64,000 nucleotides of DNA from NCBI GenBank assembly GCA_963667665.2, contig OY763927.2, forward strand, positions 1,280,001 to 1,344,000. The letters are read 5' to 3'. The notes beneath the pieces were generated by a model. It was not told the DNA's origin. It ran no database searches and saw nothing but the letters and a program-made list of their open reading frames with translations. The position numbers were made by a program, and so were the translations under genes. How positions within the stretch are numbered: position 1 is the first letter of the stretch; each line of letters opens with the position of its first letter. This stretch comes from Nitrosopumilus sp. GTDB taxonomy: Archaea > Thermoproteota > Nitrososphaeria > Nitrososphaerales > Nitrosopumilaceae. This document shows, piece after piece, positions 18,183-26,437 of this stretch.

Positions 18183-20309
18183 TTATCTAACCTTTCGTAA
18201 TTCAGACTTTATGTTATCTGCAAGGGTTGAACCAATTTTATCTATTTCTGCTAATTTATTCACTGGAATTTTTGCCAAATCATCTAAATTCTTAATTCCA
18301 TGTTTGTAGAGAGTTCTGGCTCTAACCCTTCCAATTCCTTTGACTCTAACTAGTTCAAGCAATTCCTCTCGAATTCCATAAACAATTCTTTTTCTTAGAT
18401 TACCAAGTTCTTCAAGCAAATCAGCTCTTTTCACATGCTTGGAGATCTCTCTGAGGCAGTATGAAAGCCAATTTGCAGTCTCCGTCATCCTATGCATGTC
18501 TCCTGACTCAATTCCAAGGTTATCAGATAGTGACAATTCTGAAGATTCGGTAATCCAAGCCTGTAAGGCCAAAAGGCTTCTTGAGCAATCATATTCTGAA
18601 ATTTGTTCAAGCAATTCTGAAGAATTATTTTCTATCAAAAGACTGGCAGATTCATAATCCTTCTTTCGAAGTGAGAATTTTGGGAAAAATTCTTCACAGT
18701 TTGAGATCAAGTGCAAAAATCCAAATGTATGTTTTCTTTCTTGGGATACATTTTCAATAGCATCTCTAAAGTATGTTGCAGTTAAAGGATCAATATACAA
18801 CATTGATGTCTTTTTTCCAAATTCAGTAGCTGCATATCTTTCACCTTTTTTGATTATCAGATATTTGCTGGATAAAAAACGCAAAGAAATATCAATTGCA
18901 AATTTTATTGTAGGTTTTCTTGATTGTAAACCTCCTAATGTTTGTAAGAAAAATTCCAAGATCTCATCTTTTTTAATTCCAGGATGTGTAACTATAACAC
19001 TAAGTATGTGAGTTCGCAGAGATTTGTCATCAGTAATCTTTGAAATTATTGGTTCTGGTTCTCCATTAACATAATAATCAATCAAGTCCGCAGTATTTCC
19101 ATTTCCAACAATTATTGCTTCTCCATAATCATCATATTGTGGTCTTCCAGCTCTGCCACAGAGTTGTTTGTATTCTAAAATACTAATGGGTCTATTTGCC
19201 CCAACTTTTGCATTATACCGATTAACATTTGAAATTACAACTCTTCTTGCTGGAAGATTAACTCCAGCTGCTAAAGTTGGTGTGGATGACAATAACTTGA
19301 TAGTTCCTTTACGAAATTCTGTTTCTATTGTCTCTCTGCAATTTTGATTCAACCCTGCATGATGAAATGCAACTCCTTTTTTAACAAGAAATGCTAATGT
19401 CTTTATTAATTCTGTATGTTCATTTTGGGCTAGAATTTTTTTTGAGGTTTTTTCTAATTCCTTCAAATCTTTTTTTTCTAAAATTTGAGAGATGGCATCT
19501 GCTGCTTTTGTTGCAAGAGATTTTGAACGGTTTCTAGTCTCTGCAAATACTAAAGATTGACCTCCTTCTTTTACTGATTGTACGCCTAAATCAATAGGAG
19601 TTCCACGTATGCTACGCTCAACTGAAAAGGTTTTACCATCATTCATAGTAACTTCGCCTGCATCACATACTCCCTCTGTTAGAGGTACAGGTCTCCAGTC
19701 ATTTTTTACTAGCTTGCAATCAAGCCAATCTGCAATCTCATCAGAATTTGTAATAGTAGCACTAAGACCTACAATCTGAGGTTTTGTTTCTAGTAATTTT
19801 AGTTGTGTAAGAATCATCTCAAGTGTTGGACCTCGATTTTCATCTCCAATTAAATGGACTTCATCAGTAATTACTAGTCCAATTTCTTCAACCCATTCAG
19901 CACCATGCCTAATAATTGAATCCATTTTTTCATTTGTTAAAATTAAAACATTACTTTTCTCCAAATTCTTTTCAATATTTTCATAGTCTCCAGTTGATAT
20001 ACTGACTTTGACTTTATTTCCTATTGCAACTTTTTCTAATTTTTTAAATTCTGAGAATTTTTCAGCAGCCAATGCACGTAAAGGACTAAGATAAATCACC
20101 TTGCCGGTATTCTTTGAAAGATAACTAATTATTGCAAGCATTGCAATCAGGGTCTTTCCACTTGCAGTAGGAGCAGATACTAGAATACTTTTCCCATCTA
20201 GTAAGCCAGATTCAATACTATCAGCTTGTGGAGGATATAATTTTTCATAACCTTGTGATTTTAAAAATTCAATTGCAGAATCGGGAAGATCTAGTTTCTC
20301 TATTTTCAT
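18183..20309 (-). CDS. hel308: Ski2-like DNA helicase Hel308
   Basis: APTASGKT, DEVH, LSAT, FHHAGL and GRAGRP motifs, C-terminal HhH. Confidence 0.92.
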   Translation of the reverse strand: MKIEKLDLPDSAIEFLKSQGYEKLYPPQADSIESGLLDGKSILVSAPTASGKTLIAMLAIISYLSKNTGKVIYLSPLRALAAEKFSEFKKLEKVAIGNKVKVSISTGDYENIEKNLEKSNVLILTNEKMDSIIRHGAEWVEEIGLVITDEVHLIGDENRGPTLEMILTQLKLLETKPQIVGLSATITNSDEIADWLDCKLVKNDWRPVPLTEGVCDAGEVTMNDGKTFSVERSIRGTPIDLGVQSVKEGGQSLVFAETRNRSKSLATKAADAISQILEKKDLKELEKTSKKILAQNEHTELIKTLAFLVKKGVAFHHAGLNQNCRETIETEFRKGTIKLLSSTPTLAAGVNLPARRVVISNVNRYNAKVGANRPISILEYKQLCGRAGRPQYDDYGEAIIVGNGNTADLIDYYVNGEPEPIISKITDDKSLRTHILSVIVTHPGIKKDEILEFFLQTLGGLQSRKPTIKFAIDISLRFLSSKYLIIKKGERYAATEFGKKTSMLYIDPLTATYFRDAIENVSQERKHTFGFLHLISNCEEFFPKFSLRKKDYESASLLIENNSSELLEQISEYDCSRSLLALQAWITESSELSLSDNLGIESGDMHRMTETANWLSYCLREISKHVKRADLLEELGNLRKRIVYGIREELLELVRVKGIGRVRARTLYKHGIKNLDDLAKIPVNKLAEIDKIGSTLADNIKSELRKVR

Positions 20310-22393
20310 ACTCGGTTATAATGACCGGGTCTTGATTCATAAATAGATGCTTCTCTAAGCATTCTTCGGATATAGTTTCTTGCCTCATCTTCAGTGAATT
20401 TATCACTCTTTTCTAGTTCCCTGACAAACAACTTTTCTTCTACGGGTACCTTGTTATCACCTTCAAGGCCTCTGAGAACATCCATGAATAATTGCATCTT
20501 TGAAACCTCACTTCTTGGTTTTCCTTGTAATACTCCAAGATCTACTTTTCCAGTATTGACATCTACTCCTGCGTCCTCAAGCATACTCTGAAGCAAGAAG
20601 ATTGCACGCTCAGCATCTTCTAGTTCTACCTCGTTTTTCATGAGTAATCTTGCTCTTGCAGTAGAGAGTCTGATAATTCCCTCTAGTTGTCTTGGCGTAA
20701 CTGTAATCATCTCTTCGGATTCTACATTTCTCATCTGGAGATAGTATTCGAGGATCTTTTCTTCAGCATCTTTTGTCATTTTAGGAGTACCACGTTTTGC
20801 ATATGAGAGATATTTTGTTAGTAAATCAACATCAATTACAGAACGTTTGTCTGTTCCTTGTATAGAATGCAGTTCTATAATGTGTCTAGCAATTCTTTCA
20901 TCTTTTTCTTTACTTGGAATATCTCTTACAACAAAAATCAAGTCAAATCTTGTAAGCAATGGAATTGGCAAGTTTACATTTTCTGTAATATTTTTGAATG
21001 GATCATATTTTCCATACATTGGGTTTGCAGCAGCTAAAATTGATGTTCTAGCATTTAGTGTGGCGACAATACCACCTTTTGCAATACTGGCTGACTGTTG
21101 TTCCATGACTTCGTGTAAAGCACTTCTATCTTCTGGTTTCATCTTGTCAAATTCATCTATACATACAAGACCTTGGTCACCAAGCACTACTGCACCTGCT
21201 TCAAGCATCATGATTCCAGTTTTGTCTTTAACTATAGCAGCTGTAAGTCCTGCAGCAGTTGAACCTCTACCAGAAGTATACAAACCTCGTGGTGCAATCC
21301 TTGTACAAAACTTTAGCATCTCACTTTTTGCAGTACCAGGATCTCCAACTAGAAATACGTTAATGTCGCCTCTAATCTTGCTTCCATCACCCAATATTTT
21401 TTGATTAGCACCAACGATAAGTAACATAATAGCTTCTTTGATAACTGAATGTCCTTGAATATGAGGAGCAAATGAATCAATTAGTTTTTGATATACATCA
21501 GGACTTTTACTTAATGCTTTGATCATTTCTTCTTCTTCAGGTGAAACTTCGTCTTTTGCTATTTTACGAGACATTTTAGAACCATGCCCACCCAAAAATT
21601 CAATGTTATTTCCTTCAATTCTTAATCGGTATAATCCACTATGACCTCTCTGAACACCTGCAACAGATTCTTGTTCGATTCTTACTATACCTGTAAGAAT
21701 TATTCTGTCTCCAGGCCTTGCATTATCGACTAAATCCTGCCTAATTGTGACATCAATATAGTGAGGAAGTTGTCCTGGAGGTAGATCTTCAGGAAGTTCT
21801 TGTAATCTAAGAAGTTGAAAATCAATAAACTTGCTTGCTTCAGGTTTTATCTCAAAATCCCTGTGTTTACAAGATGGGTTATCACATACTACAGGAATTT
21901 TAACATCCATTCCTTTAAGCTGAATTACTTTGGTAGGATGATCATCTGGACAAACAAAGACTAGTTCTTTTGCAAGAGGTTTTACTTCTGATGCTCTAAC
22001 TACCATTCCTGAAACACTTGTAATTGTTCCAATAGTTTCAGCATTGATTTGTCTGAGACTTCTCTGAAGTGGATAATTTATTATTCTTACACGAACTTCA
22101 TCTTTTATTTTTTCAGCATAATCAGGAAATCTTGTTTGTAGTGCTTCTTTGATTGCTCTAGAAAACGCATCAAAGACTCTATCAGGACTTGTAGTAAATA
22201 AGATCTCAATTTCTGGTTCTACAACCAAATCATTGTAATCAACTACAATGTATTTTGCATTTTTAGGCATCATCTCATCGATTGCCTCTACATAGGTATA
22301 GTTACCAGATTTATTTTTGAATCTAGTCAGGAATTCTTTTACTCTATCTGACAATGCAGAATCTGTAAATGTACTAGTTTGAGTCTTGCTCAT
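20306..22393 (-). CDS. mcm: replicative helicase MCM
   Basis: GDPGTAKS, IDEFDKM and AAANP motifs, LLTRFD arginine finger. No intein. Confidence 0.97.
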   Translation of the reverse strand: MSKTQTSTFTDSALSDRVKEFLTRFKNKSGNYTYVEAIDEMMPKNAKYIVVDYNDLVVEPEIEILFTTSPDRVFDAFSRAIKEALQTRFPDYAEKIKDEVRVRIINYPLQRSLRQINAETIGTITSVSGMVVRASEVKPLAKELVFVCPDDHPTKVIQLKGMDVKIPVVCDNPSCKHRDFEIKPEASKFIDFQLLRLQELPEDLPPGQLPHYIDVTIRQDLVDNARPGDRIILTGIVRIEQESVAGVQRGHSGLYRLRIEGNNIEFLGGHGSKMSRKIAKDEVSPEEEEMIKALSKSPDVYQKLIDSFAPHIQGHSVIKEAIMLLIVGANQKILGDGSKIRGDINVFLVGDPGTAKSEMLKFCTRIAPRGLYTSGRGSTAAGLTAAIVKDKTGIMMLEAGAVVLGDQGLVCIDEFDKMKPEDRSALHEVMEQQSASIAKGGIVATLNARTSILAAANPMYGKYDPFKNITENVNLPIPLLTRFDLIFVVRDIPSKEKDERIARHIIELHSIQGTDKRSVIDVDLLTKYLSYAKRGTPKMTKDAEEKILEYYLQMRNVESEEMITVTPRQLEGIIRLSTARARLLMKNEVELEDAERAIFLLQSMLEDAGVDVNTGKVDLGVLQGKPRSEVSKMQLFMDVLRGLEGDNKVPVEEKLFVRELEKSDKFTEDEARNYIRRMLREASIYESRPGHYNRV

Positions 22394-22904
22394 TTAGATC
22401 TCCTCTTATTTGTTTTTCAAACTCTACACTGTTATCATGGATTGTTTTATAGAATGCACTTTCTTCAACAGTTAATTTGTTGTAGAGTTCAGAATTTAGT
22501 TTGATAGAGTCTGCTATCTTTACTAGTTTACCTCTTCTCATTCTAAATAACTCTAACATCATACTTTCAACTTTATCAAAATCGTTATGATTCAATTCTT
22601 TCATAGATTCTTTTAGTTTAATGTAAAAATGAGAGTCTAGTGTAGAGATTTGATATTCTCCAACCATCTTTTCTTTTGATAATGCTTGTTTTAGTTCAGT
22701 AATCATATCTGGAGAATCAAGTGTTGTCAATTTATTATCAGATAGTATTTTTCCAATCCACTGAGGCATGTTAATTATCTCCCCTGTAGTTCCCTCGGTT
22801 TTTATTCCTGCAACATTAAATTTGAAATCGCGATTAACTGTAACCTTAGCATCCTTTAGGCGGTGTCCAACCGAATGCACTTTTTCTATTTTATCTATTT
22901 CCAT
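22374..22904 (-). CDS. GINS complex subunit (Gins23 type)
   Basis: MP.W.G..L, FYIKL and R.RRGKL motifs. Directly upstream of mcm. Confidence 0.85.
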   Translation of the reverse strand: MEIDKIEKVHSVGHRLKDAKVTVNRDFKFNVAGIKTEGTTGEIINMPQWIGKILSDNKLTTLDSPDMITELKQALSKEKMVGEYQISTLDSHFYIKLKESMKELNHNDFDKVESMMLELFRMRRGKLVKIADSIKLNSELYNKLTVEESAFYKTIHDNSVEFEKQIRGDLNEQDSN

Positions 22905-22909
22905 ATCGA

Positions 22910-23004
22910 GATCTTGATCCGCCTGAAGATCTTCAAGTCAGGATCCGTCAATTGATCTGATCAAACAGCTCAATAGAATTGATCCAAGCGATCTCAGGCT
23001 GATC
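22910..23004. promoter_or_regulatory. GATC cluster / structured leader of gins-mcm operon
   Basis: GATC at 22910, 22916, 22928, 22942, 22954, 22959, 22981, 22990 and 23001. Confidence 0.55.
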
Positions 23005-23095
23005 GCATAGAAAATACAACTAATTTTGATTTTAATTTGTAGTATGTCATAATAACCAATTCGGATTTATTAATGGGAATTGAACCTAAAGTTTT

Positions 23096-24046
23096 ATGTC
23101 TGCAACAGGAATGTGGGTAGAAAAATATCGACCAACAAAACTTTCAGAAATTGTAAACCAGACAGAAATTATTGGAAGTTTAGAAGCTCTAATCAAAGAT
23201 CCCACTGATATGCCACACTTGATGTTTTCTGGTTCTGCAGGAGTAGGCAAAACCACTACTGCATTATGTCTTTCAAGACAAATTTTAGGGGAATATGCCA
23301 AAGACCACACTCTTGAGTTAAACGCATCAGATGAACGAGGAATTGAAATGGTTAGACAAAAAGTAAAGAAATTTTCAAGATTTGCCGGAATGGTAGATGT
23401 TCCATTTAAAATTATTATTTTAGATGAAGCAGATGAAATGACCTCAGCTGCTCAAACTGCACTTAGAAGAATTATAGAAGATACCGCAAAAATTTGTAGA
23501 TTTATTTTAATTGCAAATAATATTTCAAAAATTATAGAACCTATTCAAAGCAGATGTGCAACTTTCAAGTTTACAACAGTTTCTGAAGAAGATGTCATTG
23601 CCAGACTAGAAGAGATTGCCAAAAAAGAGAAAGTAAAGACTGACAAAAAGGGTCTAAAGGAAATTTATGAATATACAGAAGGAGATTTGAGACATGCAAT
23701 TAATTTAATGCAAGCAACTGCAAGTCTTGGTGGAATCACTGAAGAGAATGTAAAGGCATCAGCTGGATTATCAAAAACCAGTGATGTTGATGAAGTCCTA
23801 AAAATTGCACTAGCCGGAAAAGTTGTCGAAGCAAGAGAGAAGATGATAGAATTAATCAAAGTTTATGGAATGTCAGAATCTGATTTCCTAAAGTATTTCA
23901 ATTCAGCTGTATTCAAATCAAAACATACCAATTTGTCAGATATTTTACAAGTAATTGCAAAGTATGATTATAGAATACTAGTTGGAGCAAATTCTGAAAT
24001 TCAGTTATCTGCAATGCTTGCAGAACTTGCAAAATTAGAAAAGTAA
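23096..24046 (+). CDS. rfcS: replication factor C small subunit
   Basis: WVEKYRP, GSAGVGKTT, ELNASDERG, DEAD and QSRC motifs. Confidence 0.96.
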   Translation: MSATGMWVEKYRPTKLSEIVNQTEIIGSLEALIKDPTDMPHLMFSGSAGVGKTTTALCLSRQILGEYAKDHTLELNASDERGIEMVRQKVKKFSRFAGMVDVPFKIIILDEADEMTSAAQTALRRIIEDTAKICRFILIANNISKIIEPIQSRCATFKFTTVSEEDVIARLEEIAKKEKVKTDKKGLKEIYEYTEGDLRHAINLMQATASLGGITEENVKASAGLSKTSDVDEVLKIALAGKVVEAREKMIELIKVYGMSESDFLKYFNSAVFKSKHTNLSDILQVIAKYDYRILVGANSEIQLSAMLAELAKLEK

Positions 24047-24054
24047 TTCAAGAA

Positions 24055-24966
24055 TTAAGCATCTAGAGATTTTAGATTTTTACATCTGTTTCTTATAGTA
24101 ACTTCAGTTACGCCTGCAGCCAAGGCAATTGTTTTTTGGGTTGTATTCTCGCCAGTCTCCATACTTGCAATATACAAAGCAGATGCTGCCATTCCCATAG
24201 GATCTTTTCCAGATACAATTTGATGTTGTTCAGCTTTTTTGAGAAGCTTCATTGCATGACGTTTAGTTTTTTCAGATAGACCTATCTGACTTGCAATTCG
24301 TGAAATACATGAAACTGAATCAACTACCGGCATCTTCAAATCTAATTCTTTTACTACCATTCTATAACAAATAGCGAGATTTTTTCTCGTAATGTTAATT
24401 GAACTTGAAACATCATTAAGAGTTCTTGGAGTACCAGTTTCACGACAAGCAGCATAGAGTGTTGCAGCAATTAATGCAGAAATTGATCTACCCCTAACAA
24501 GTTTCTTTTCAAGAGCTTTTCTGTAAATGTAAGCTGCTTTTTCTACAATAGGATCAGATAAAGATAATTTCTCTTTCATTTTGAGTAATTCACTTAGTGC
24601 ATGTTGAAGATTTCTATCAGCAGAATCTTTAGTACGACTTCGGCTATCCCAAATACGTAATCGCTTAATTGAGGATTTCATGGATGAAGATAACGGATTT
24701 CCAGAAGAGTCTTTGTTCATTGGGCTAATTATTGTACTAAGACCTTGATCATGTCTTGTTAGTGATGTTCTATCTCCAGTTCTTGATTTGTTGGTACCAC
24801 TATCTGAGAATGTTCTTTCTGGTCCTTGATTGTCTATTCTGCCAGTAATTACAAAACCACACTTGCCACAAAACATTTCACCTGTTTCATCATCAGTAAT
24901 TATTTTGCTTTTTCCACATCTAGGACAGCCTTGTTTTTTTGATAGTTGTTGATTTTGTTGTGCCAT
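24055..24966 (-). CDS. tfb: transcription initiation factor IIB
   Basis: N-terminal Zn ribbon (CPRC...CGKCG), two cyclin folds, GVTEVTIRNR. Confidence 0.95.
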   Translation of the reverse strand: MAQQNQQLSKKQGCPRCGKSKIITDDETGEMFCGKCGFVITGRIDNQGPERTFSDSGTNKSRTGDRTSLTRHDQGLSTIISPMNKDSSGNPLSSSMKSSIKRLRIWDSRSRTKDSADRNLQHALSELLKMKEKLSLSDPIVEKAAYIYRKALEKKLVRGRSISALIAATLYAACRETGTPRTLNDVSSSINITRKNLAICYRMVVKELDLKMPVVDSVSCISRIASQIGLSEKTKRHAMKLLKKAEQHQIVSGKDPMGMAASALYIASMETGENTTQKTIALAAGVTEVTIRNRCKNLKSLDA

Positions 24967-26327: not shown

Positions 26328-26437
26328 TCACAATAGATATTATTTAAAGCTAGGCCAAGATTGTTAGGAGTACCAGTCAGTAATAGATCAGTTATGTAGT
26401 AATTTCCTTACGTTCATAACGATCTACGATCAATTTC

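What the first reader, a model, noticed from the sequence alone, without database searches (positions are those of the whole stretch)
22905..23010. Nine GATC sites in 95 bp in the leader of the gins-mcm-hel308 operon, divergent from RFC
Seen: GATC occurs at 22910, 22916, 22928, 22942, 22954, 22959, 22981, 22990 and 23001. At ~33% GC about one site per ~330 bp is expected, so this is roughly 30-fold enriched, and I saw no comparable cluster elsewhere in the window. It fills the non-coding gap between the gins ATG (22904) and AT-rich promoter-like sequence near 23020-23075. It is also more GC-rich than other intergenic DNA. Established: dense GATC clusters at E. coli oriC and the dnaA promoter are Dam/SeqA hemimethylation timers. 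I recall, but cannot verify here, that GATC m6A is reported in marine AOA methylomes. Inference: this may be a methylation-state-sensing element that couples expression of the helicase and clamp-loader genes to fork passage. I am not aware of such a system described in archaea.
Basis: partly seen in the sequence, partly recalled or inferred. Interest (0 to 1): 0.8.

Follow-up and report, generated by a model that had tools for sequence, protein, structure and literature searches.

The report
GATC-packed leader of archaeal helicase operon
A 100-base stretch in front of the replication-helicase genes of an ammonia-oxidising archaeon holds nine copies of the DNA-methylation site GATC, is kept across its genus, and is probably a protein-bound control region that may tie helicase production to the methylation state of the DNA.

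Summary
Nine GATC lie at 22910-23004. This is the only non-tandem cluster of that density in the 1.89-Mb genome, where GATC is otherwise the most depleted palindromic tetramer (O/E 0.69).

The cluster fills the gap between a conserved TATA-like box and the GINS start codon. That implies a ~100-nt leader, which is unusual in a genome whose promoters mostly sit 26-35 nt before start codons.

I read the homologous stretch in 66 same-genus genomes. 65 carry 4-10 GATC.

- No RNA structure is supported.
- Sub-modules occur in both orientations.
- Extra copies sit before unrelated genes.
- An orphan Dam-type methyltransferase is present, and papers report 98-99% GATC m6A in relatives.

Against a pure SeqA-like timer:
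- The spacers are conserved too.
- There is no SeqA.
- Helical phasing is not significant.
- The origin is 234 kb away.
- Some Dam-positive relatives lack the cluster.

Best reading (0.4): a DNA-level array of GATC-centred palindromes, bound by an unidentified protein and modulated by methylation.

The parts
22905..23010 (-). GATC array. Nine GATC sit in about 100 bp that form the predicted 5' leader and initially transcribed DNA of the GINS-MCM-Hel308 operon. The array is built of short palindromic or inverted modules.
   Evidence: Sites. Uniqueness. Conservation. Modules and their inversions.
23022..23036 (-). Conserved TATA-like box (minus strand ATTAAAATCAAAATT). It is the presumed promoter of the operon.
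   Evidence: The box is kept at a fixed distance from the start of the conserved leader in the alignments. The 12-14 nt after it vary. Its promoter function is inferred, not shown.
23004..23008 (-). Predicted transcription start, about 22-25 nt after the TATA-like box, where conservation resumes.
   Evidence: Inference from the spacing and the conservation pattern. No start-site data were found.
22374..22904 (-). GINS subunit gene (176 aa).
   Evidence: Pfam Sld5 helical domain, E 3.7e-10. ORF.
20306..22393 (-). MCM helicase gene (695 aa). It overlaps the end of the GINS gene by 20 nt.
   Evidence: Pfam MCM, MCM_OB, MCM_lid and MCM_N. ORF.
18183..20309 (-). Hel308-type helicase gene (708 aa). 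It overlaps the end of the MCM gene by 4 nt.
   Evidence: Pfam DEAD, Helicase_C, archaeal helicase domain 4 and HHH_5. ORF.
23051..23077 (+). Nearly invariant promoter block of the divergent RFC gene. It contains a TATA-like TTTATTAA that ends 22 nt before the start codon.
   Evidence: Nearly invariant columns in the 20-genome alignment. Conserved in 38 type-A genomes. Its position fits the genome-wide TATA peak at -35 to -26.
23096..24046 (+). Replication factor C small subunit gene (316 aa).
   Evidence: Pfam AAA, Rep_fac_C and RFC lid domains.

Best explanation
The cluster is a DNA-level control region. It is an array of GATC-centred palindromes and inverted modules that fills the first ~100 transcribed base pairs of the GINS-MCM-Hel308 operon. 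It also lies 90-190 bp upstream of the divergent RFC gene.

An as yet unidentified DNA-binding protein, probably dimeric, occupies these sites and sets how much of the helicase operon is transcribed. The cores of the sites are the target of the genus-wide orphan Dam-type methyltransferase. Binding is therefore likely to depend on whether the sites are un-, hemi- or fully methylated. That would let expression respond to passage of the replication fork.

Shown:
- the array and its uniqueness in the genome;
- its conservation in the genus;
- its position between a conserved TATA-like box and the start codon;
- its tolerance of module inversion;
- the presence of the methyltransferase gene.

Inferred:
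- that the DNA rather than the RNA is read;
- that a protein binds;
- that methylation changes binding;
- that the output is replication-coupled.
For: 1. Density and uniqueness.

2. GATC is otherwise avoided. Its O/E is 0.69, the lowest of the 16 palindromic tetramers. Yet it is the commonest tetramer in the promoter-plus-leader segment of 43 genomes, at a mean of 6.93 per ~152 nt.

3. Conservation. 65 of 66 same-genus leaders read have 4-10 GATC. 134 of 151 genus genomes matched the query.

4. Orientation tolerance. A 16-nt module lies forward at position 43 in the majority allele. It lies forward at position 21 in three genomes and reverse-complemented at position 21 in four, including this one. 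A second module is reverse-complemented in the minority allele. GATC and the other palindromes survive such inversions, whereas an asymmetric RNA sequence would not.

5. No RNA structure. MFE z-scores are -1.29 and -0.46. The consensus fold has a covariation term of +0.09 and its pairs are GATC-on-GATC. Rfam found nothing on the element.

6. Portability. Further copies of the leader stand before other genes in G016, G020 and G157.

7. The methyltransferase. A Dam-type ORF scores 218 bits on PF02086 and carries DPPY. A match over the family cut-off was found in 22 of 24 sampled genus members. Published GATC m6A levels in relatives are 98-99% (passages read).

8. The G156 case. Both this leader (2 GATC) and the otherwise conserved GATC-bearing leader of the origin-adjacent gene (0 of 3) have decayed in this genome. 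Its Dam ORF is intact and its genome-wide GATC depletion persists, with O/E 0.64. This points to a shared trans-acting factor other than the methyltransferase.

9. Position. Sites downstream of the start point are where archaeal repressors commonly act. This last point is established knowledge, recalled and not tested here.
Against: - No binding protein is identified.
- The element is transcribed if the promoter prediction is right, so an RNA-level role is not excluded. GAUC also survives inversion in the RNA.
- Within the majority allele the spacers are as conserved as the GATCs. Methylation sites alone therefore do not explain the constraint.
- No SeqA homologue was found.
- Helical phasing is not significant (p 0.12 and 0.16).
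- Dam-positive relatives lack the cluster at the same gene pair (G002, G017, G038).
- Other replication genes (PCNA, PolB, primase, orc1/cdc6) have 0-1 GATC upstream. There is therefore no general GATC regulon of replication genes.
- The decay in G156 affects the whole leader at about 24% divergence, not the GATCs in particular (my count). It is a single lineage.
- The methyltransferase's specificity for GATC was not tested here.
Confidence: 0.4

Rival explanations
1. This is an ordinary transcription-factor operator array in which methylation plays no part. GATC occurs only because it lies inside the factor's palindromic recognition sequences, such as the 12-bp and 8-bp perfect palindromes of the majority allele.
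For: - Spacers and non-GATC palindromes (a GTTAAC box) are as conserved as the GATCs in 38 genomes.
- Dam-positive genomes exist without the cluster.
- G156 lost the element while keeping Dam and its GATC depletion.
- A conserved winged-helix protein gene sits next to the origin behind its own GATC/GTTAAC-bearing leader.
Against: - The flanks of the individual GATCs show no common extended motif (my reading).
- The GATC number is kept or raised, at 8-10, in the minority allele although the GTTAAC box degenerates there.
- Any protein that reads GATC in a cell where about 98-99% of GATC is methylated must meet m6A in its site (papers).
- The 12-bp palindrome defines no wider regulon. It occurs once or twice per genome, always in a copy of this same leader.
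Confidence: 0.25
2. This is an RNA-level leader. The ~100-nt 5' UTR acts through its GAUC-rich sequence. It might bind a protein, or pair with the GAUC-containing 3' end of 16S rRNA, or mask the Shine-Dalgarno-like GUGAUC that lies 5-6 nt before the start codon in most relatives.
For: - The conserved block begins where the transcript is predicted to start, and the spacer before it varies.
- Long leaders are rare in this genome.
- The consensus fold pairs an upstream GGAUCA with the GUGAUC region in 18-19 of 20 sequences.
- A small peak of SD-like words lies at -15 to -11 genome-wide.
- That the 16S 3' end contains GAUC is recalled, not checked here.
Against: - Folding energies do not differ from shuffles (z -1.29 and -0.46).
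- There is no covariation, and variants in the best local hairpin are not compensatory (my reading).
- There is no Rfam match.
- A 16-nt module is present in either orientation in related genomes.
- Transcription of the leader is not shown.
Confidence: 0.2
3. This is a pure SeqA-like hemimethylation timer. Only the number and density of GATC sites matter. A reader of hemimethylated DNA sequesters the promoter after the fork passes.
For: - The density is extreme and conserved.
- The GATC count is kept through rearrangement.
- An orphan Dam-type gene is present.
- Three GATCs in the leader of the origin-adjacent gene are kept in 23, 20 and 23 of 23 genomes aligned, including two high-G+C genomes where the flanks differ.
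Against: - Spacers are conserved.
- There is no SeqA.
- Phasing is not significant.
- The locus is 234 kb from the origin.
- Dam-positive genomes lack the cluster.
Confidence: 0.1
4. The array is a by-product without a GATC-specific function. It would be an inversion-prone quasi-palindromic promoter cassette that spreads by duplication and is kept for reasons unrelated to GATC.
For: - There are nested inversions.
- Extra copies lie next to a transposase fragment and a ParB-like gene.
- A partial copy and a copy of the promoter part exist in G157 and G155.
Against: - Near-invariance over 38 genomes, whose neighbouring coding third positions vary freely, shows purifying selection.
- GATC is depleted everywhere else.
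- The element stays at one syntenic place in at least 122 genus genomes that aligned end to end (my count of rows).
Confidence: 0.05

Closest known systems
E. coli oriC and dnaA-promoter GATC clusters (Dam methylation, SeqA sequestration). Recalled from established knowledge.
   Same: Both have a dense cluster of Dam sites at a replication-initiation or helicase-related promoter, in an organism with an orphan GATC methyltransferase. In both, fork passage would produce a hemimethylated state.
   Different: - This is an archaeon with a TATA/TFB-type promoter.
- No SeqA was found.
- The cluster lies downstream of the predicted start point, 234 kb from the origin.
- Spacers are conserved as well as sites.
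- Phasing is not significant.
Dam/regulator competition switches in enterobacteria (pap with Lrp, agn43 with OxyR). Recalled.
   Same: GATC sites are embedded in binding sites of a sequence-specific protein, so methylation and binding exclude or modulate one another. This fits an array in which both GATCs and spacers are constrained.
   Different: Those switches use 2-3 GATCs and give heritable on/off phase variation of surface structures. Here 6-10 sites sit in front of essential replication genes. No regulator is known and no under-methylation data exist.
Caulobacter CcrM/GcrA control of cell-cycle promoters through GANTC methylation state. Recalled.
   Same: The idea is the same: the position of a gene relative to the origin, plus m6A sites in its promoter, times expression of replication and cell-cycle genes as the fork passes.
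   Different: None of these components was looked for here except the Dam-type enzyme.
GATC m6A in archaea. Sources are the Sulfolobus acidocaldarius methylome study (PMC5809426, passages read) and thaumarchaeal methylomes (PMC6329791 and PMC8919816, passages read; PMC11033074, review passages read).
   Same: Archaeal GATC adenine methylation by enzymes without a partner nuclease. A link to the cell cycle has been asked about.
   Different: The passages I read describe genome-wide levels and gene sets, not a GATC cluster at the GINS/MCM operon. The 2024 review 'The Archaeal Cell Cycle' (PMC7617429) holds no occurrence of the word 'methylation'.

Membership tests
Dam/SeqA sequestration element (oriC / dnaA promoter type) | An orphan GATC-specific adenine methyltransferase in the same genome. 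| tested here: inconclusive
   A D12-class ORF scores 218 bits on PF02086 and carries DPPY. No restriction-enzyme family was found in the two flanking ORFs tested. GATC specificity was not tested here. It rests on papers about relatives.
Dam/SeqA sequestration element (oriC / dnaA promoter type) | A cluster of GATC far above the background density. | tested here: met
   Nine sites in 95 bp against 1 per 325 bp. This is the only non-tandem cluster of that density.
Dam/SeqA sequestration element (oriC / dnaA promoter type) | A SeqA-family reader of hemimethylated GATC. | tested here: not met
   PF03925 has no match at E <= 0.1 in a 99.97% complete genome. The control search found it in E. coli. 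A non-homologous reader is not excluded.
Dam/SeqA sequestration element (oriC / dnaA promoter type) | Sites spaced so that pairs lie on one face of the helix. | tested here: inconclusive
   The resultant length at period 10.5 was 0.40 (p 0.12) for this genome and 0.46 (p 0.16) for a majority-allele genome.
Dam/SeqA sequestration element (oriC / dnaA promoter type) | Prolonged hemimethylation after fork passage. | not testable with these tools
   This needs methylation kinetics in synchronised cells.
Structured RNA leader / riboswitch | A conserved secondary structure supported by covariation or by unusual stability. | tested here: not met
   The RNAalifold covariation term was +0.09. 2 of 15 pairs showed any double change, and in each case only in the rearranged sequence. 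z-scores were -1.29 and -0.46.
Structured RNA leader / riboswitch | A match to a described RNA family. | tested here: not met
   Rfam 15 at E <= 10 over 22000-24000 gave six weak hits. None lay on 22905-23010 and none came near its gathering score.
Archaeal replication origin (ORB boxes plus an AT-rich unwinding element beside orc1/cdc6) | Origin recognition boxes and adjacency to orc1/cdc6. | tested here: not met
   The only Cdc6_C match is at contig position 1,536,150-1,536,410. Repeated boxes and an AT-rich stretch lie next to it. Three complete relatives start their numbering inside that region. The GATC array is 234 kb away and has no such boxes.
Simple tandem repeat | Head-to-tail copies of one unit. 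| tested here: not met
   The spacings are 6, 12, 14, 12, 5, 22, 9 and 11. In contrast, the 12-, 15- and 9-bp arrays elsewhere are regular.

The most novel reading that the evidence does not exclude
The genus runs a replication-coupled epigenetic circuit of a kind not described in archaea. Dam-methylated GATC arrays sit in the leader of the GINS-MCM-Hel308 operon and in the leader of a conserved winged-helix gene right beside the orc1/cdc6 origin. A dedicated protein, possibly that winged-helix protein, would read them and distinguish hemimethylated from fully methylated DNA. Helicase and clamp-loader expression would then be reset each time the fork passes. Mobile elements would have copied the leader to ride on the same timing signal.
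Probability: 0.2. Interest if true: 0.85.

Novelty: new variant of a known kind. Interest (0 to 1): 0.62.

Why it matters
How archaea time the expression of their replication machinery is largely unknown. The 2024 review I searched lists a few ribbon-helix-helix regulators and does not mention DNA methylation.

Ammonia-oxidising archaea carry a conserved orphan GATC methyltransferase whose purpose is unexplained. The finding gives that enzyme a concrete candidate target: a genus-wide, uniquely dense and strongly constrained GATC array on the replicative-helicase operon.

It also makes the question testable with existing methods:
- per-site methylation kinetics from published long-read data;
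- start-site mapping;
- methylated-probe pull-downs.

If methylation proves irrelevant, the element is still one of the most conserved non-coding sequences of the genus. It would be a handle on an unknown regulator of MCM/GINS expression.

Tried and rejected
- Rfam scan of 22000-24000 at E <= 10: nothing on the element.
- RNA folding and consensus folding: no excess stability and no covariation.
- Helical phasing of the sites: not significant.
- RNA evidence. I laid contigs of four metatranscriptome runs on 21500-24500. The runs that hold this strain have no contig over 22914-23115, which says nothing either way. One contig of a relative (X18) runs 153 letters beyond 22904 into its own leader. 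DNA carry-over cannot be excluded, and contigs show no starts.
- Homology of this leader with the leader of the origin-adjacent gene: they share short words in the same order, but local alignment scores are reached by 2 to 39 of 300 shuffles in the same orientation. I rejected this as evidence.
- A GATC-doublet regulon. Short-spaced doublets and triplets are enriched in non-ORF DNA: GATCGATC 6 of 6, and 33 of 66 triplets against 15% of the genome. Their neighbours are heterogeneous, including transposases, ThiC, an ABC transporter, a chaperonin and others.
- A general replication regulon: PCNA, PolB, primase, orc1/cdc6 and CdvB-like genes have 0-1 GATC upstream.
- The 12-bp palindrome as a regulon marker: it found only copies of this same leader.
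- Loss of Dam as the cause of the decay in G156: rejected. The ORF is intact with DPPY and 81% identical to this genome's, and GATC O/E in 140 kb is 0.64.
- ORB-like boxes ending in GATC at contig positions 567.8 and 590 kb as the chromosomal origin: rejected, because orc1/cdc6 lies at 1,536 kb.
- Small ORFs in the leader on either strand: none is conserved (my reading).
- Earlier notes of this scan: only phage GATC clusters, nothing on this genome or element.
- Literature on start sites in Nitrosopumilus and on GATC at archaeal GINS/MCM: nothing found by the terms. The GATC/methylation search returned only the review PMC11033074.

Full report
**1. Observation**

GATC occurs at the nine stated coordinates between 22910 and 23004.

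The window has 206 sites, fewer than all 100 dinucleotide shuffles (mean 260). The 1,884,960-bp main contig has 5,799, or one per 325 bp. A second-order expectation is 8,348. GATC therefore has O/E 0.69 and is the most depleted of the 16 palindromic tetramers.

At the observed density the chance of nine or more sites in 95 bp is 3.3e-11.

A genome-wide scan found only three other places with six or more sites per 100 bp. All three are regular tandem repeats of 12, 15 and 9 bp. Over the 150 nt upstream of 1,800 crude ORFs, the next highest count after this locus's nine is five.

The element is 44.3% G+C, against 32.7% (sd 8.0) for intergenic windows.

**2. Anatomy**

On the minus strand lie three genes with overlapping frames: a GINS subunit (22374-22904), MCM (20306-22393) and a Hel308-type helicase (18183-20309). 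On the plus strand lies the RFC small subunit (23096-24046).

The RFC gene has a nearly invariant promoter block. Its TATA-like element ends 22 nt before the start codon. This is the usual arrangement in this genome: TATA-like hexamers pile up 26-35 nt before start codons, with 327 hits in those two 5-nt bins against roughly 55 per bin elsewhere.

The GINS gene has no such element there. Its only conserved AT-rich box is at 23022-23036. A variable spacer of 12-14 nt follows, and then conservation resumes at about 23006.

I infer a start point near 23006 and a leader of about 100 nt. That is unusual here, and the GATC array fills it completely. No start-site data could be found.

**3. Relatives**

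The region aligned end to end in 19 of 24 same-genus genomes of a first draw. 134 of 151 genus genomes matched in a second search. By my count of its rows, about 122 span the whole intergenic region.

I read the leader in 66 genomes:
- 46;
- the 20 weakest full-length matches.

65 carry 4-10 GATC. In 43 genomes the count per promoter-plus-leader segment was distributed as 2:1, 5:1, 6:10, 7:21, 8:7, 9:2 and 10:1. Three sequences were dropped because a script pattern failed.

GATC is the commonest tetramer of the segment.

Outside this AT-rich part of the genus the gene pair stays divergent, but the gap holds 0-3 GATC. This applies to G002 and G017, which are same-genus and 52-55% G+C, and to four genomes of other families.

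**4. Is it an RNA structure?**

- Rfam finds nothing on the element.
- The leader folds no better than shuffles (z -1.29 here, -0.46 in a relative).
- The consensus fold of 20 sequences has a covariation term of +0.09, and its helices are GATC pairing with GATC.
- Variants in the best local hairpin are not compensatory (my reading).
- No conserved small ORF is present.

**5. Methylation**

A D12-class adenine methyltransferase ORF scores 218 bits on PF02086 and carries DPPY. It lies elsewhere on the contig.

The two flanking ORFs I scanned show no nuclease family. The ORF before it looks like AmoA to me, which is recalled and not tested.

A match over the family cut-off was found in 22 of 24 sampled genus members. 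The two without one are 56% and 73% complete, and one of the 22 is only a fragment.

I read passages only of the following papers:
- GATC m6A at 98.2% in a Nitrosoarchaeum bin, with a methyltransferase lacking a nuclease partner (PMC6329791).
- More than 99% in Ca. Nitrosomarinus catalina, as reviewed in PMC11033074.
- 19-99% across marine archaeal bins (PMC8919816).

The sites of the array are therefore very probably methylation targets. This was not measured for this organism.

**6. Tests of the SeqA-type reading**

- No SeqA-family protein was found.
- The sites are not significantly phased.
- orc1/cdc6 and a typical origin, with repeated boxes and an AT-rich stretch, lie 234 kb away.
- Dam-positive G002, G017 and G038 lack the cluster.
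- In the majority allele (38 of 45 aligned genomes) nearly every base of the central 50 nt is 95% conserved or better. That is more than the third codon positions next door.

The constraint is therefore on a specific sequence, not only on GATC density.

**7. Modules and copies**

The minority allele includes this genome. It is not a drifted version of the majority allele but a rearranged one.

- A 16-nt module lies forward at position 43 in the majority allele (0 mismatches).
- The same module lies forward at position 21 in three genomes (1 mismatch).
- It lies reverse-complemented at position 21 in four genomes (1-3 mismatches).
- A second module appears reverse-complemented at position 44 (2-4 mismatches).

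The GATC number is kept or raised through this, at 8-10. Function thus tolerates inversion of parts. That fits palindromic DNA sites better than a defined RNA.

Further copies of the leader exist:
- In G016, before an unknown 160-aa ORF and near a transposase fragment.
- In G020, before an unknown 84-aa ORF and near a ParB-like gene.
- In G157, near a PolB-exonuclease-like gene and an HD-domain gene.
- In G155, a copy of the promoter part only.

**8. Other GATC places**

Non-tandem triplets of GATC within 50 bp are intergenic in 33 of 66 cases, against 15% of the genome. GATCGATC is intergenic in 6 of 6 cases. These figures rest on a crude ORF map.

The next non-tandem clusters include the upstream region of an HTH/ATP-cone/NrdD-like gene, with five sites. 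A triplet just beyond that gene's stop, 135 nt or more before the neighbouring ribonucleotide reductase gene, is also listed, though only one of its sites falls within 150 nt of the RNR start. Relatives also carry sites before the NrdD-like gene. The two high-G+C genomes carry none.

Beside the origin lies a 128-aa gene that is conserved (3,757 homologues, unnamed).
- Its model has a winged-helix C-terminal half.
- Its best structural matches are all winged-helix repressors, but only at E about 3e-3.
- Pfam gives a weak BlaI-type hit (E 0.0075).
- Its leader has three GATCs, kept in 23, 20 and 23 of 23 aligned genomes. This includes the two high-G+C ones, where the flanks differ.
- More distant Dam-positive genera have GTTAAC boxes there but no GATC.

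PCNA, PolB, primase and orc1/cdc6 have 0-1 GATC upstream. There is therefore no general regulon.

**9. A natural experiment**

G156 has 2 GATC in the GINS leader and 0 of 3 in the origin-adjacent leader.

Both leaders are diverged as a whole, by about 24% and 31% on my count. Its Dam ORF is intact, and GATC remains depleted in 140 kb sampled: O/E 0.64 against 0.73, 0.60 and 0.69 in three other genomes.

Two unlinked, otherwise strongly conserved leaders decaying together suggests a shared trans-acting factor other than the methyltransferase. This is one lineage only.

**10. Synthesis**

| Reading | Confidence |
|---|---|
| DNA-level array of GATC-centred palindromes in the initially transcribed region, bound by an unidentified protein and modulated by Dam methylation | 0.4 |
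| The same array with methylation irrelevant | 0.25 |
| An RNA-level leader | 0.2 |
| A pure density-based hemimethylation timer | 0.1 |
| A by-product cassette | 0.05 |

Specific protein sites that contain GATC fit better than a bare SeqA-like landing pad.

**11. Novelty and limits**

Dense Dam-site clusters on replication promoters are textbook in enterobacteria. I found no description of one in archaea with the searches, nor in the review.

All functional statements are inferences from sequence. In particular:
- The intergenic classification rests on a crude ORF map of frames of 90 aa or more.
- Relatives are not independent samples.
- Supplements of the methylome papers were not opened. 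They may hold per-site data bearing on the claim.

Noticed in passing
Outside the window: G000 contig 1, 1,537,320-1,538,192 (locus L068): This is the orc1/cdc6-adjacent origin region. It has two direct copies and one inverted copy of a ~23-nt box, an AT-rich stretch and at least five GTTAAC boxes. A conserved 128-aa gene follows. Its model is a winged helix, and its short leader carries three GATCs kept in 23, 20 and 23 of 23 genomes.
   Followed up: partly
Outside the window: G000 contig 1, about 567,790-567,840 and 589,990-590,320: There are several copies of a ~23-nt box ending in GTGATC. Some form inverted pairs that meet at GATC-N(1-2)-GATC, in a region with transposase fragments. They look like origin-recognition or iteron boxes of an integrated element, not the chromosomal origin.
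   Followed up: partly
Outside the window: G000 contig 1, 1,653,819-1,653,900 and 1,656,143-1,656,190: Five GATC lie upstream of an HTH/ATP-cone/NrdD-like gene. Three lie just beyond that gene's stop, 135 nt or more before the neighbouring ribonucleotide reductase large-subunit gene. AT-rich relatives also carry sites before the first gene.
   Followed up: partly
Whole genome G000: The octamer GATCGATC occurs six times, and all six lie outside ORFs of 90 aa or more. GATC pairs 4-14 bp apart are about twice as often intergenic as single sites.
   Followed up: partly
Loci L193 (G016), L196 (G020), L168/L197 (G157), L169 (G155): Paralogous copies of the GINS leader, or of its promoter part, stand before unrelated small ORFs. 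They lie near a transposase fragment, a ParB-like gene, a PolB-exonuclease-like gene and an HD-domain gene.
   Followed up: partly
Loci L160 and L170 (G156): One genome has lost most GATCs in both the GINS leader and the origin-adjacent leader. It keeps an intact Dam-type gene and genome-wide GATC depletion.
   Followed up: yes
Outside the window: G000 contig 1, 11,494-11,725; 307,258-307,408; 907,715-907,763; 836,579-836,678: GATC-containing tandem repeats with units of 12 bp (20 copies, inside a large ORF), 15 bp, 9 bp (intergenic) and 24 bp (coding, glycine-rich).
   Followed up: no
Locus L001 (G000 contig 1, 1,776,676-1,780,428): The Dam-type methyltransferase gene directly follows an ORF that looks like the ammonia monooxygenase A subunit. 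This identification is recalled, not scanned.
   Followed up: no
window 26386-26431: Three GATC lie in 46 bp, in the gap between a ferredoxin-like gene (minus strand) and the eIF-6 gene (plus strand). The last site ends 6 nt before the eIF-6 start.
   Followed up: no
window 24055-24966: A TFB (TFIIB-type) gene lies tail to tail directly after the RFC gene.
   Followed up: no
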